Below, piece after piece: positions 12,780-23,052 of a DNA stretch of 35,224 nucleotides. This stretch comes from Paraglomus brasilianum (lineage: Eukaryota), in NCBI GenBank assembly GCA_910592345.1, contig CAJVPI010000327.1, forward strand, positions 1 to 35,224, read 5' to 3'. Both the position numbers and the translations under genes were made by a program. Each line of letters opens with the position of its first letter. Within the stretch, counting starts at the first letter, position 1. Under the pieces are notes generated by a model, which saw only the letters and a program-made list of their open reading frames with translations, was not told where the DNA came from and did not search any database.

Positions 12780-13417
12780 TTAAAATAAAGATCTTATTCC
12801 GAGATACTTGGCAAGGCGTCTCTTGCGAGTAGTAAGGTTTCCATTTGTTGGTTGACCATAAGCAGCCAGTAATAAGGTAATTTCAGTAGACTGTGCATTC
12901 TTAATAGCATTGAAATCTTGCAGAAAATTAGGAGGAATAACACCTGCATTTGTATTTAAAGGTTCAATAGCAGTTCGATCATCAAGGATTGTGAAATTTA
13001 CAATGCGAGCTTGTGTTCTCTGCTCAACTAAAAGTAAAAGAAATTTAGTTAAAAGTAACTAAGAAAATGATAAGACAGAAGTTTATAGACATTCTATACT
13101 GGAAATTACATACGCTGGTCAATTGACTGAGTGAGAGCTTGTTGTTGTCTAGTAAAGTCTTGTTGTTGTCTAGTGAGGTTTTGGATTTGTGTAGTGAGGG
13201 CTTGGATTTGTGTAGTGAGGGCTTGGGTTTGTGTAGTGAGGGCTTGGAGTTGTGTAGTGAAGTCTTGTTGTTGTTTAATGAGTTGTGTAGTGAAGTTTTG
13301 TTGTTGTCTAGTGAGGCTTTGGATTTGTGTAGTGAGGTTTTGGAATTGTGTAGCTGTGGCAACTACCGGAAGGTTCTGGAAAGCATTCGCAATATTTGTG
13401 AGATTGGGTTGCGCCAT
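12780..13417 (-). CDS. Mug135/Tdk1-like (DUF1773-like) heptad-stalk protein, copy 1, 183 aa. Exons 13417-13114 and 13027-12780
   Basis: ATG at 13417 and a GTATGT..TAG intron in the same position as copies 2 and 3. The spliced ORF is open: MAQPNLTNIANAFQNLPVVA-(Q/T heptads)-SIDQLEQRTQARIVNFTILDD..IEPLNTNAGVIPPNFLQDF..LLAAYGQPTNGNLTTRKRRLAKYLGIRSLF*. The family name is assigned by motif recognition only. Confidence 0.82.
13114..13354 (-). repeat. Imperfect 21-bp coding tandem repeat (heptad stalk of copy 1)
   Basis: Recurring + strand unit similar to ttggatttgtgtagtgagggc, encoding LTTQxQx heptads. Confidence 0.9.
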
Positions 13418-13871
13418 TTGTCCCGAATAATAGCAGCGAACTGATACTGTACCAAGGGAAATCAAACAAATTACGTGTATTTAAATATGAACACGTCGCG
13501 AATAACAGTCGGTGAGATTTCCCGATTCGTCAATGGAGATCGTTCTTTTTATGGTAAGAGATAAGAGTTCATTGAAAAACTTATTCGGATGCACCAGAGT
13601 CAAAATCGGAGGGGCGGAAATGAGTAATGTGTCGTTGAGTGCCAAATGTGTACTGATTATAGCAAGATTTACGTTTTCTAAATTGGTGGGGGACATCAAA
13701 CAAAAATCAATGCATTTCAAACTTAAAATTTCAAACAATAATACAAGCATTACTGTATTAATAATTCAAAATTTAAGAACGCCATTTTGTTCTTCTTGAT
13801 AAATTATGTTTAGAAAATTGACAAATGCTACATGTGGTTGAGATATAACTGTTCAAAGTTTAGTTAATTTA

Positions 13872-14052
13872 CAGTTGACACTGTTTATACCGGACTGCCC
13901 GGCTGAAGAGTTTTCGTTTGTTATAACCCGAGTGTTTGCTATAACCCGAGATTCGTTATATCCAGAGTTATTAATTATAAAAAATCGGTTCTGGCAATTT
14001 TGTTTCGTTATATCCAGAGTTCGGTATAAACAGGTGGTAACAGTGTCATCCG
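13872..14052. mobile_element. Short pogo/Tc1-mariner-type MITE (about 181 bp)
   Basis: Left end TA|CAGTTGACACTGTTTATACCG. The right end is a degenerate inverse copy CGGTATAAACAG..AACAGTGTCATCCG|TA. Internal repeats TATAACCCGAG and TTCGTTATATCCAGAGTT each occur twice. Confidence 0.65.
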
Positions 14053-14169
14053 TATATAGTGAGCAGAAATTTGAAGCAGCCTTTTCTGGTAAAATCTATC
14101 TTAATTTCTTAAGGCCTGCGTTGTGAAATTTATTGAGACTCTTACTCATAACGAAAAGAAAGATTAACA

Positions 14170-14702
14170 TAAAAAGAGAAAAGCTTTTTAAGTGCGCCGA
14201 TTTGGTCTGCTAGGCGCATCCTATTTATCGATCGATCGAAATTGCGGATGAAGAACAAATGTTACGGTTGAAGCCCGAAATTTGCAGAAAGAATTATGAC
14301 TTCGCAATCTAAGTTTTCAAATCAGCATCAAAGCCACGATGCAATACTTGAAGAAATAAACAAAGCACTCAAATCATTAGTTCCTCTGCACCTTCATAGC
14401 AGCATTGAGAAATCGTGGCACGTAATTGTACTAAATTTGTGACGTTACGTACCAATCTTTTTAATATAATAGGATATTCTGAAGGTGAAACGCATAGGCC
14501 TCGTACACGTCCTAGCTTTATTACTGAATCGCATAGATTTTGGGTTCGGATAAGAAAGACACAATTTGTAAATCCGAATGCCTGTGATCATGTTTTTCAG
14601 GATATAAGCGGTGAATGGATACTAAGTGAAAAAATGAAAAAATTTAGTGAAATTGCACGGACGAAAAGAATAGATTTTATTAAAGCGCGGAGACATCACT
14701 AG
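14170..14702 (+). pseudogene. Degenerate fragment of an uncharacterised coding sequence, possibly TE-derived
   Basis: Protein-like peptides interrupted by stops and frameshifts: RSIEIADEEQMLRLKPEICR, EEINKALKSLVP, NIIGYSEGE..NPNACDHVFQDISGEWILSEKMKKFSEIARTKRIDFIKA. Confidence 0.4.
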
Positions 14703-19661: not shown

Positions 19662-20559
19662 TGTATTGACATTAATATTTAGAACAGAGTTGCTGAGAAG
19701 AACCGTCGTAAGCATGATGTATGTAAATAGTGGTTATTTATACAAATTATATATACGACAAAAAATTATATGTATTTATTGCTTACAATAATGATAATAT
19801 CGATGAAAAAAACCCTTTACGATTTCTGATATTCGTATAAACATCGCATCGCCTGTTTATCGGTTTAACGTACCGACCGTGTAGAGATATGATTTTTGCA
19901 AATTTAAAATTCCCAAGAGAAAACTTTCTCATACGAAAAAAACCATAAAATTGAAATTCAATCTCTTTCTAAACTACCAAATCTAAACCATTTTTATTCT
20001 AGGTAACATTGAATAAACCGCTGATTAAATTTAGGTTCGATTTTACAGACAGAAAAAAGGTTACATAGTGAAACTCGATAAGTCGAACACTCGATAAGAC
20101 AAAATCTCTCGCCTCTTTTTTTCATATTTAAAATTTTCTCAACAAGTCGGACGAGATATATAAACACTGTAAGTCTCATTAGTCAAAAATGTTACTTACC
20201 GATCATTTGTTAGTTGACGATTTATCATTTTTGTTGTCATTTGATGATTTATTGGCATTCTTGTAATTTAAAGAAAATGTTTATACCTTGTTATGCTATT
20301 TCATTTGACGATTTAGAAAGACGTTTTTGTAATTTAAACAATTTTTTATACGTCTTTATATCATTGATAATTGTATTTGATGGTTTCATTCTACGATTAT
20401 TTGCATTTCGAAATAGCACAGCGTGTTTATCTATTTCAGAAAATGTATAAAAGGCTAATGTCCGTCCTAACCTTTAATATTTTGAAGTGATTGATACATG
20501 AGCGATCTTTTTTCAGATAGGGCGATCAAGGTCGGTTTTGGATTGTCATGGAGATTTGA

Positions 20560-21210
20560 TTTGTTGATGTATATTGAGGGATAAAAAATCAAAATTATGA
20601 AGCTCAATATAGAGCTTATTGTCATAAACGTCCAATTTGCCTACTTTTTCTACCAGTATTGTGACGAACTGTTACCTCAAATTCTGCTGGACGGATTTCA
20701 GTACCAGTACCGGAGATATATTGTGTGGTTTGGACAGAGAATATTGTTGTATTATTACGAGTTTGTGTTGGAGCTTTGATAGCGCCGATCGTTCGTATCG
20801 ACAAGCATTTTGTTTCGATAATTTTCATTATTCCGCGTGATTTCTCCTCGTCTTGCTGCATCTGCTTCAAATATTCTCATATATTATGCTATTGAATGCC
20901 AGATAGACGATATTACTGTAAGATATTTAGACCGACACCCAAATCCTATTGGGCGAGTATAGTAAGTAATGACTACTGCCAACCAATGAGATAGTATAGA
21001 TAATGCTAATGTTGCCGAAACGTATACTCGTTTTTTTTTCAGCAGGATCGTTGTTAACAGGGTCCAAATTAATTAGTGGAGCGGCTGCATCTAACTTATT
21101 GTCTGGATTTTTGCCTACTGTTTTTCCTTTAATCATTCTTACAAGGAGTGCTGGAAATGTCCATTGCAAATAACAACGGAATAGAGGTTGAGACTTTATC
21201 GTCACTTTGA
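20560..21210 (-). pseudogene. Highly degenerate coding relic, possibly ORF1 of a non-LTR retroelement
   Basis: Broken protein-like frames (RFGNISIIY, SRGIMKIIETKCLSIR) and strong strand compositional skew. No diagnostic catalytic motif was seen. Confidence 0.25.
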
Positions 21211-22460
21211 TCGGTCAATCAGCCTTGCTTGTAATTGAATGTCAGTGTACGGTCTTGGTATTTGTCTGCCTTCGATATCGTCGGCTGGATCGCTGCGTAC
21301 TTCACGTTAATGTATTATGCTCCGTCTTTATCCTCCATTTCTTCGTTATTATTATAGTCGTTAGTGAGGAAAGGTTGTATAAGTCAGATACTTTTATCAT
21401 GTAGTCGTTGTTATCAGGAGAGAATTCAAATGCCACTGCATATTACCTTCTTCTTCTTCACCATATCTTTGCATATAGATAGATTCTTGGAAGTGTATAT
21501 CTACGCACAAGTAACCTTTTGGGTTCAACTTAATATATTAGTCCAACTATGGATGTTCCATGAGCATACTCACTTGTCGCATATGGATCTACGAAAATGT
21601 ACCTTAATTATTTCCTTACAACAACAACTTTCATTATCACATATAGATCTTTACGTCATCAATTACAAACATTACAGCGACCACCTCCAATTACGTTTTG
21701 AAATAACGGATCTACCTGTATATCGCTATCAAATTTCATCGAACCTGTGACAAATACTCCGTCCACTCCAGGTTATCTTAGTTAACAAAAGAAACAATAA
21801 ACACACCACCCGCATTGAATTCCACAAAACAAAAAACCGATGAAATTACAATGGAACATCATCCAAACGACAATATAAATGAAAATCAACCATCTGAACA
21901 TACCACTAACACTAAAAAATCTGCAAATTCTATAGCAGAACTGTCAACATCTACGATTAAAATCCCAAAATATCCCAAACGAACCCTCCGTAAAAGAGAC
22001 ACAAATTAAATCACAGACTTATAATTGTAATTATCAATTCATTCAATACTATATGTATGCAATCACAAATTTCACTACAATAAATTATATCGTCAGAACC
22101 ACGAAAAGTTACGTGTACCACCTACGAATATGATCATCAACTTGCAACGAATAATTTATTTATCCAATCAAATATTTCCAACGTGTATCAATATTCTTAG
22201 CGGATTACACATAGATCAACTAATGCTAATAACATTGATACAAAACTATAACAGTTACAAATATGCAAATCATAACTTATTCTCTGAAATATAATTCAAC
22301 ACACGCAACTTTGTTATTCTTATAGACTTACTTCATTATTTTAACATATAACTATACCATAATGAACATATACCATTATTCAACAAAAACAAAACATCGT
22401 GTATGGAGCGTGCCACTTGTTACCATCCTAGTTTAGTTGATTATAATTAAAATAGAGATT

Positions 22461-23052
22461 TTATTCCGAGATACTTGACAAGGCTCTCTTGCGAGTAGTA
22501 AGGCTTCCATTTGTCGGTTGACCATAGGCAGTAAGTAATGCGGTGATTTCAGCAGACTGTACATTCTGAATAGCATTGACATCTTGAGGAAAATTAGGAG
22601 GAACAGCGCCTGCATTTGTATTTAAAAGCTCGATGTTGGCAGTTCGATCGTCACGGATTGTGGAATTCGCAACGCGAGCTTGCGTTCTTTGCTCAACTAA
22701 AAATAAAAGAAATTTAGTGAAAAGTAACTAAGAAAATGATAAGACAGAAGTCTATAGACATTTTATACTGGAAATCCAAAATATTATACATACGCTGGTC
22801 AATTGACTGAGTGAGAGCTTGGTGTTGTGTAGTAAGGTCTTGCTGTTGTCTAGTGAGGCTTTGGATTTGTGTAGTGAGCGCTTGGAGTTGTGCAGTGTGT
22901 CTAGTGAGTTGTGTAGCGAGGTTTTGGATTTGCGCAGTGAGGTTTTGGAATTGCGTAGCTGTGGCAACTACCGGAAGGTTCTGCACGTTAGGAACTTCGT
23001 TTGCAAGTACTTGGAAAGCATTCGTAATATTTGTAAGATTTGGTTGCGCCAT
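22461..23052 (-). CDS. Mug135/Tdk1-like heptad-stalk protein, copy 3, 164 aa with frameshifted C-terminus (possible pseudogene). Exons 23052-22794 and 22696-22461
   Basis: Same intron position as copies 1 and 2, with a 56-aa stalk. A 1-bp deletion between 22484 and 22485 (AGA CGC CTT becomes AGA GCC TTG) turns TRKRRLAKYLGIRSLF-like into TRKRALSSISE*. Confidence 0.8.
22794..22959 (-). repeat. Imperfect 21-bp coding tandem repeat (heptad stalk of copy 3)
   Basis: Uninterrupted heptads TAQIQNL ATQLTRH TAQLQAL TTQIQSL TRQQQDL TTQHQAL TQSIDQL. Confidence 0.85.

What the first reader, a model, noticed from the sequence alone, without database searches (positions are those of the whole stretch)
12780..23052. 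Cluster of three Tdk1/Mug135-like (DUF1773-type) genes: candidate killer-driver or nuclear-competition toxin-antidote locus in a Glomeromycota-like genome
Seen: three paralogous two-exon genes within about 10 kb, missed as whole genes by the ORF track. Each has a 20-30 aa N-terminal segment (PNL..AFQ..NLP), a Q/T heptad stalk built from 21-bp repeats and a C-terminal domain of about 80 aa (AR..NS..I.PL..PPNFP..LL.AYG..RKRRLAKYLGI). None has a signal peptide or TM segment, and all sit among TE debris. Established: a C-terminal Mug135_C/DUF1773 domain after a repeat coiled-coil stalk is the architecture of S. pombe Tdk1 (Mug135), a single-gene killer meiotic driver whose product acts as both toxin and antidote and engages the BET protein Bdf1. 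Inference: the C-terminal motif looks like this family, so these genes may be a selfish toxin-antidote or self/non-self system. In coenocytic fungi with no observed sexual cycle it might act between nuclei or spores, or hint at cryptic meiosis. I know of no description of such a system in this lineage.
Basis: partly seen in the sequence, partly recalled or inferred. Interest (0 to 1): 0.9.

Follow-up and report, generated by a model that had tools for sequence, protein, structure and literature searches.

The report
Compact Tdk1 relatives in mycorrhizal fungus
A fungal genome stretch carries three copies of a small gene, one of them broken, whose predicted protein shape matches the killing half of the fission-yeast spore killer Tdk1 but lacks its control region, so it is likely a stripped-down relative that may act as a selfish element, although killing is untested.

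Summary
The three two-exon paralogues are real, but only copy B is complete. A lacks 10 residues of the N-terminal helix. C is a pseudogene: its frameshift recurs in an independent allele that also has an extra stop. The source database names copy A's protein as Paraglomus brasilianum. The head domain scores below Pfam's Mug135_C cut-off, yet Tdk1 is the top structural match in two PDB searches, and a Tdk1C-like parallel trimer is predicted. Homology to Tdk1's stalk and head is therefore well supported. Membership of the tdk driver family is not: the Z-shaped N-domain, the PP hinge and the Bdf1-binding surface are absent. These genes belong to a widespread short-N-terminus class of a larger superfamily (Mug135_C, DUF3294, DUF7722) that also reaches Pezizomycotina, oomycetes and green algae. 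The last two head helices form a basic SAP-like fold, a candidate chromatin tether that would need no BET protein. A 2025 preprint already lists the domain in Glomeromycotina, but with zero copies in this species. A selfish lineage in turnover is my best reading (0.4); active killing is unshown and is hard to reconcile with a shared cytoplasm. No earlier scan note on this family was returned.

The parts
12780..13417 (-). Copy A: exon 1 13417-13114, intron 13113-13028, exon 2 13027-12780; 183 aa; open frame, but 10 aa of the N-terminal helix are deleted relative to B, C and P0003
15699..16378 (+). Copy B: exon 1 15699-16032, intron 16033-16127, exon 2 16128-16378; 194 aa; the only copy with every part intact
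22447..23052 (-). Copy C, pseudogene: exon 1 23052-22794, intron 22793-22697, exon 2 from 22696; 1-nt deletion between 22484 and 22485, new stop ending at 22461; the paralogues' stop position lies near 22447
13130..13353 (-). 21-bp repeat array of copy A, encoding the Q/T heptad stalk (predicted three-helix coiled coil)
15792..16016 (+). 21-bp repeat array of copy B (stalk)
22810..22958 (-). 21-bp repeat array of copy C (shorter stalk)
16130..16375 (+). Head of copy B: Mug135_C/DUF3294-like domain whose last two helices form a basic SAP-like fold (same in A, 13025-12783)
15547..16401 (+). Segment duplicated in inverted orientation as 23204-22424 (B/C duplication, with about 150 bp of upstream DNA)
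23205..24042 (.). Repeat-rich DNA interrupting the region upstream of copy C, ending in a 59-bp unit repeated three times that is single upstream of B (15493-15544)

Best explanation
These are three locally duplicated copies (one complete, one shortened, one broken) of a compact distant relative of the spore killer Tdk1, whose protein is predicted to form a three-stranded stalk with clustered heads and likely belongs to a selfish toxin-antidote gene lineage in turnover, which would grip chromosomes through its own basic SAP-like head rather than through a BET protein. Shown: gene structures, decay of C, purifying selection on the head between A and B. Predicted: Tdk1C-like fold and parallel trimer. 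Inferred: the 20-residue N-terminal helix plus a proline hinge stands in for Tdk1's N-domain and sets the oligomer state; a switched, higher-order form bound to chromatin would block nuclear division in progeny lacking the gene, and fresh protein would dissolve it. This could only work at a stage where nuclei are walled apart (a cryptic sexual or few-nucleus stage). Most copies are probably inactive or resistance-only at any time; I put present-day killing by copy B at about 0.15.
For: Tdk1 tops 350,542 PDB chains by Foldseek (E 0.059, 113 columns) and 48,161 by VIA (Z 9.2, 130-133 residues, rmsd 2.8-3.4; next row 6.9, plain coiled coil). An 80-sequence profile aligns without breaks through Tdk1's stalk and head (E 1e-4). 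Trimer score 0.78 against best control 0.00, runs agree in at least 97% of contacts, pLDDT at least 86; the mark was reached by 21 of 30 solved pairs and 0 of 23 single chains, and the pass may be from likeness. Turnover as in tdk (49 of 93 loci are pseudogenes): 1 of 3 copies broken here, 2 of 2 metagenome loci broken (one is an allele of C), 4 of 9 nearest records lack the tail. Stalk length varies from almost none to about 85 aa among close relatives, as Tdk1's repeat region is dispensable. SAP domains are the next fold matches in two libraries (36 residues, rmsd 0.6-0.9, E 0.6-6); that segment has net charge +4 and is positive in 61 of 80 relatives. Any chromatin tether makes activated Tdk1 toxic, and two drivers kill without Bdf1.
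Against: No Z-domain and no PP hinge: the long class aligns its PAWF hinge with Tdk1 109-114, the short class does not align there. No Bdf1-binding surface. The two tested trimer-trimer contact positions are not kept: Tdk1 A276 falls on Arg119 and E346 lies past the C-terminus (read; weak at 17% identity). Heads are below the Pfam cut-off, and a 21-sequence head-centred profile missed Tdk1 at E<=10. Even in fission yeasts only 2 of 15 and 0 of 6 tested homologues drove. The head is under purifying, not diversifying, selection (A-B omega 0.19-0.28). A tight basidiomycete clade looks like a conserved host gene. AMF cytoplasm is shared, so an antidote would reach non-carrier nuclei. No Pfam SAP hit. 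Gene decay is common in this window anyway (kinase and transposase fragments).
Confidence: 0.4

Rival explanations
1. A host-serving trimeric nucleic-acid or chromatin-binding protein of the Mug135_C/DUF3294 superfamily, duplicated and lost by the ordinary gene-family churn of repeat-rich AMF genomes, with no killing role.
For: Purifying selection on the head (0-fold vs 4-fold sites, A-B p=0.001). The short N-terminus class is conserved from Glomeromycotina to Pezizomycotina. 41 of 80 relatives match DUF3294 at E<=0.01, the family of budding-yeast MRP8 (recalled). Driver-defining N-terminal parts are absent. Neighbours are typical expanded AMF families (BTB-BACK-Sel1, kinase fragment).
Against: Many close relatives are broken. 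Two separate Glomeromycotina clades with patchy species records. Stalk length is highly variable. The only members with a demonstrated function that I found in print are killers.
Confidence: 0.35
2. A self/non-self system acting at hyphal fusion: subunits of unlike stalk length or sequence co-assemble badly, form toxic aggregates and cause post-fusion retraction or loss of one nucleotype.
For: tdk drivers interact only with themselves and are mutually incompatible. Copies differ mainly in repeat number. Post-fusion incompatibility and nucleotype loss are described or proposed for AMF (passages).
Against: Three unlike copies sit in one genome. No sign of diversifying selection. Soil-metagenome pieces over A and B differ by only 2-4 letters per 200-400, so no deep allelic divergence was seen.
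Confidence: 0.12
3. All three copies are now silent relics of an earlier functional gene.
For: C is dead. A has lost part of its N-helix and most exon-2 CpGs (5 against 18 in B).
Against: B is complete, and A-B divergence shows selection on the protein.
Confidence: 0.1

Closest known systems
Tdk1 (Mug135) of Schizosaccharomyces pombe; PDB 9JA5, 9JA6
   Same: Repeat-built helical stalk running into the same globular head; predicted parallel trimer with the head touching the neighbour's stalk end.
   Different: 164-194 aa against 357; about 16-26 residues before the stalk against a 111-residue N-domain; no PP hinge, no Bdf1-binding surface, no equivalent of residues 345-357; head segment basic with a SAP-type loop; 16-24% identity.
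tdk family and IPR013902 superfamily (PMC12930445)
   Same: Several copies per genome, pseudogenes, internal repeats of variable number, presence in Glomeromycotina.
   Different: That survey used the InterPro threshold and found 0 in this species and 0 in Pezizomycotina; it reads a missing N-domain as decay. Here the short N-terminus is a conserved class of its own, and relatives occur in Pezizomycotina, oomycetes and a green alga.
DUF3294 (PF07957) and DUF7722 (PF24847)
   Same: Hit the same head region in 41 and 15 of 80 relatives; the nearest named relative P0003 passes the DUF3294 cut-off.
   Different: The window's heads stay below both cut-offs; no function was found in print for either.
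SAP domain proteins (3'hExo, DEK, MKL1, Tho1, PIAS1, Ku70)
   Same: The last two helices and loop superpose over about 36 residues at rmsd 0.6-1.2 in most rows.
   Different: Only part of the head; no Pfam SAP match; the lysine after the loop glycine of typical SAP motifs (recalled) is hydrophobic here; DNA binding untested.

Membership tests
tdk killer meiotic drivers | PF08593/IPR013902 domain at the curated cut-off | tested here: not met
   19.5, 19.2 and 15.8 bits against 23.8; relatives P0075, P0078 and P0096 pass
tdk killer meiotic drivers | Head fold of Tdk1 preceded by a long helix | tested here: met
   Top hit in Foldseek and VIA searches; profile alignment; model pLDDT 93
tdk killer meiotic drivers | Z-shaped N-terminal domain | tested here: not met
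   Only one short helix precedes the stalk; N-termini of short and long classes do not align
tdk killer meiotic drivers | PP motif at the N/C linker | tested here: not met
   The PAWF hinge of the long class aligns with Tdk1 109-114; the window's genes have NLP instead
tdk killer meiotic drivers | Homotypic oligomer (trimer of the C-terminal part) | tested here: met
   Predicted only: 0.78 against 0.00 for copy A; may be from likeness to solved complexes
tdk killer meiotic drivers | Second conformation (autoinhibited tetramer, dimer of trimers) | not tested
tdk killer meiotic drivers | Several copies and frequent pseudogenes | tested here: met
   genome-wide count not possible
tdk killer meiotic drivers | Post-germination killing of non-carriers, self-protection | not testable with these tools
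   needs crosses
Tdk1 subtype | Hydrophobic Bdf1-binding region in the stalk (233-255) | tested here: not met
   Equivalent residues 75-98 carry no hydrophobic residue outside the coiled-coil core
DUF3294 | PF07957 cut-off 20.6 bits | tested here: inconclusive
   13.6-17.7 bits for exon 2 alone; P0003 21.2
SAP domain | Helix-extended loop-helix fold | tested here: met
   individual E-values 0.6-6, support comes from recurrence and low rmsd
SAP domain | Sequence profile PF02037 and DNA binding | tested here: inconclusive
   No hit in 10 proteins at E<=10; binding not testable

The most novel reading that the evidence does not exclude
The short-N-terminus class is a second, minimal architecture of Tdk-type single-protein killer, which tethers itself to chromatin through a SAP-like head; its survival and turnover in arbuscular mycorrhizal fungi records ongoing meiosis or nucleus-level selection in a lineage with no observed sex, and the killer superfamily spans fungi, oomycetes and green algae.
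Probability: 0.15. Interest if true: 0.9.

Novelty: new variant of a known kind. Interest (0 to 1): 0.55.

Why it matters
If these genes drive, they are a molecular footprint of sex or nuclear competition in mycorrhizal fungi, a long-open question, and can be tested in yeast without culturing the fungus. Whether or not they drive, the analysis widens the Tdk superfamily beyond the published survey (two N-terminal classes; Pezizomycotina, oomycetes, a green alga). It also offers a testable answer to how Bdf1-independent tdk drivers may reach chromosomes: a SAP-like fold inside the Mug135_C head, which my text searches of two of the Tdk papers did not find mentioned.

Tried and rejected
No whole genome is held, so genome-wide copy number and synteny were not tested. 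Single-sequence and small-profile PDB searches missed Tdk1. The model without an alignment had an unfolded head and was not used. No RNA holder listed, so expression and splicing were not tested with reads. Viral contigs gave no locus; viral folds gave no match at E<=0.001. Rfam found nothing in the window. An alternative product starting in the intron (as in wtf genes) was considered: the frame is open only in B (P0002) and closed in A and C, so rejected. Adjacent accessions in Rhizophagus first looked like tandem paralogues but differ almost only at the N-terminus, so they are probably isoforms. The first dN/dS (0.18-0.35) was inflated in significance by transition bias; after correction only A-B stays significant. 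The careful tree did not finish; the quick tree leaves the backbone open. A mobile-element origin of the genes was rejected: depth over them is low beside the flanking repeats, and the intron excludes retroposition. Paper searches for Rhizophagus locus tags returned only unrelated papers. Scan notes: nothing by sequence or place; one unrelated note by words.
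Full report
1. Observation. Three paralogues lie at 13417-12780 (A, minus), 15699-16378 (B, plus) and from 23052 (C, minus). 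Each has one GT-AG intron in phase 1 (86, 95, 97 nt) between a repeat-built exon 1 and a head-coding exon 2. The spliced product of A is identical to database protein P0001, which the source names as Paraglomus brasilianum. A relative on locus L002 has the intron at the same place. No RNA run was available, so splicing rests on these two points.

The copies are not equal. B (194 aa) is complete. A (183 aa) lacks 30 nt of the N-terminal helix that B, C, P0003 and L002 all keep. C has a 1-nt deletion that removes most of the last helix. It is real: a contig of run X4 covers it without difference, and metagenome locus L001, 99.6% identical over 1467 nt, shares it and adds three non-synonymous changes in exon 2, one a stop. 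B and C are an inverted duplication of about 860 bp; A shares only the gene body. Depth over the genes is low beside many intervening stretches, which behave as multi-copy repeats.

Selection. Between A and B the head is under purifying selection: 12 of 151 zero-fold against 11 of 37 four-fold sites differ (p=0.001; omega 0.19-0.28 with transition bias allowed for). Pairs with C give 0.35-0.55, not significant.

2. What the protein is. Pfam gives Mug135_C as best hit for all three heads (15.8-19.5 bits, cut-off 23.8), then DUF3294. A search of 1.84 billion representatives gave 102 hits at E<=0.001. I dropped 14 that matched only the coiled coil or stopped short of the head's end and 8 more (a window duplicate, broken tails, odd inserts), leaving 80 for alignment A3. 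Of these 80, 41 match DUF3294, 29 Mug135_C and 15 DUF7722 at E<=0.01, so the three families overlap on one domain. The A3 profile aligns through the stalk and head of Tdk1 (9JA5, 9JA6; E 1e-4 and 3e-4; ranks 2 and 3 behind a coiled-coil construct). A smaller head-centred profile did not find Tdk1, so the sequence signal is remote.

The model built on A3 has pLDDT 93: a short helix (6-13), a 96-residue helix (18-113) and a small head. Tdk1 is the top Foldseek hit (E 0.059, probability 1.0, 113 columns) and the top VIA hit (Z 9.2, 130-133 residues, rmsd 2.8-3.4; the next rows are plain coiled coils at 6.9 or less). Z 9 is modest for a helical protein, but the match covers the whole head. The Atlas searches agree (head TM 0.73 to Mug135_C clusters, 0.88 to a DUF3294 cluster). 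Three copies of A fold as an in-register coiled coil with head residues 175-178 touching a neighbour's stalk end: 0.78 against 0.00 for the best control, at least 97% contact agreement, pLDDT at least 86; the mark was reached by 21 of 30 solved pairs and 0 of 23 single chains; the job differs from the two-copy calibration and may pass by likeness. This matches the 'mushroom' trimer described for Tdk1C.

What is missing. All active tdk drivers have a Z-shaped N-domain and a PP hinge. Among the relatives, one class has a long N-domain and a PAWF hinge (22 of 80 by pattern); its profile ranks Tdk1 first and lays that hinge on Tdk1 109-114 (E 0.0015). The window's genes belong to another class: about 20 residues starting QPN and ending NLP. 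The two classes align only over stalk and head. The short class is not simple decay: it recurs in Funneliformis, Rhizophagus, Tirmania, Xylona and Ophiocordyceps. The stretch matching Tdk1's Bdf1-binding region (233-255) is residues 75-98, with no hydrophobic residue outside the core. Reading the register, A276 falls on Arg119 and E346 lies beyond the end; changing these two abolishes Tdk1 killing. At 17% identity this is weak evidence.

A SAP-like sub-fold. After Tdk1, most Foldseek hits are SAP domains over about 36 residues (3'hExo, MKL1, Tho1, PIAS1, DEK, Ku70), and the viral library gives the same. Single E-values are weak (0.6-6) and Pfam's SAP model does not hit (0 of 10). The segment is basic (+4; positive in 61 of 80, negative in 12); in Tdk1 it is neutral with an acidic loop (counted by hand). 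The word SAP was not found in the main text of PMC12930445 or PMC11551393; PMC11551426 was not searched for it.

Range. Of 30 relatives looked up, 10 had an organism name; three more came. They cover Glomeromycotina, Pezizomycotina, a basidiomycete, the oomycetes Aphanomyces and Pythium, and the green alga Edaphochlamys. A quick tree of 81 heads shows two separate Glomeromycotina groups (each 98 SH-aLRT), one with the window's genes and P0003, the other with Rhizophagus; the backbone is unresolved. Of the 9 nearest records, 5 keep the last helix and 4 do not; one of the 4 is shown to be frameshifted, the others are unexplained and could be read or gene-call errors. Both metagenome loci are broken.

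3. Mechanism. Best reading (0.4): a selfish Tdk-type lineage in birth and death. The inferred steps are an oligomer switch set by the N-terminal helix and proline hinge, chromatin attachment through the basic SAP-like head, blocked nuclear division in non-carriers, and rescue by fresh protein. The published basis is that an oligomer mismatch between an N-terminal peptide and the trimeric C-terminal part makes toxic assemblies, that any chromatin tether suffices, and that two drivers need no Bdf1. The main difficulty is biological: Tdk1 works because each spore makes its own antidote, whereas AMF nuclei share one cytoplasm. Nucleus-against-nucleus drive in mycelium is therefore unlikely unless protein stays near its nucleus of origin; a walled meiotic product would be needed. 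Rivals: ordinary host protein (0.35), fusion incompatibility (0.12), all relics (0.10).

4. Known and new. PMC12930445 already proposes that many fungal IPR013902 genes are drivers, and its supplement lists five in Glomeromycotina and none in this species. So the domain in the lineage is known as a list entry. Not found in my searches: any functional study in AMF, the short class as a conserved type, the link to DUF3294 and DUF7722, non-fungal members, or the SAP-like fold. The library lacks most subscription papers. The genes work like the C-terminal half of Tdk1 structurally but fail the tdk membership test on two defining features.

Papers seen: PMC12930445 parts 1-4 of 8, passages, and supplement search passages (figures and the tree file content not seen); PMC11551426 parts 1-4 of 8; PMC11551393 passages and section 11; PMC12712441 passages; PMC6281316, PMC9249182 and PMC3184777 only as listings with abstract starts, which state that meiosis has not been observed in AMF while meiotic genes and recombination signs exist. 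Recalled, not from a call: MRP8 as the budding-yeast DUF3294 protein, and the SAP consensus lysine.

5. Verdict. A real and correctly spotted remote homology, with an over-reached functional reading. New variant of a known kind; interest 0.55.

Noticed in passing
P0066, P0038, P0115 (oomycetes); long-class alignment A6: Oomycete relatives have a long N-domain, and several of this class carry the PAWF hinge that aligns with Tdk1's PP motif; they are better driver candidates than the window's genes, although the domain is described as fungal only.
   Followed up: partly
P0094, P0035, P0027: Pezizomycotina members exist (Tirmania, Xylona, Ophiocordyceps), where the published survey counted none; a green-algal member too (P0091).
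   Followed up: partly
window 13028-13113, 16033-16127, 22697-22793: The intron is more conserved than four-fold sites of exon 2 (A-B 6 of 85 against 11 of 37). Low GC and no CpG may explain it; gene conversion or a regulatory role is possible.
   Followed up: partly
window 12780-13025: Exon 2 of copy A has 5 CpG against 18 in B and 13 in C, suggesting past methylation of A.
   Followed up: partly
window 16064-16378: An ATG inside B's intron is in frame with exon 2 (P0002, hydrophobic start); the frame is closed in A and C.
   Followed up: yes
P0104, P0107 (Rhizophagus irregularis): A homologue that ends just before the last helix, close to where copy C breaks; may be a second independent loss or an annotation artefact.
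   Followed up: no
P0037, P0080, P0084, P0093: A tight clade including a basidiomycete protein with a distinct conserved head; may be a domesticated host gene.
   Followed up: no
L002:947-1379: Related gene with almost no stalk repeats, the same intron position and a frameshifting deletion in exon 2; P0005 looks like its intact counterpart.
   Followed up: yes
window 1-1171 (-): BTB-BACK-Sel1 gene, cut by the window start.
   Followed up: no
window 26166-28862 (+): Multi-exon acyl-CoA oxidase gene.
   Followed up: no
window 30232-30556 (-); 34657-35224 (-): Protein kinase fragment; MFS/sugar-transporter-like gene cut by the window end.
   Followed up: no
window 5218-5415 (-); 24478-25171 (-): Transposase-type helix-turn-helix fragment (HTH_23 above cut-off); a broken ORF with no Pfam match that may be another transposase remnant.
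   Followed up: no
window 11339-11544, 23735-23862, 31672-31887: Three copies of a short dispersed repeat, one inside the insertion upstream of copy C.
   Followed up: no
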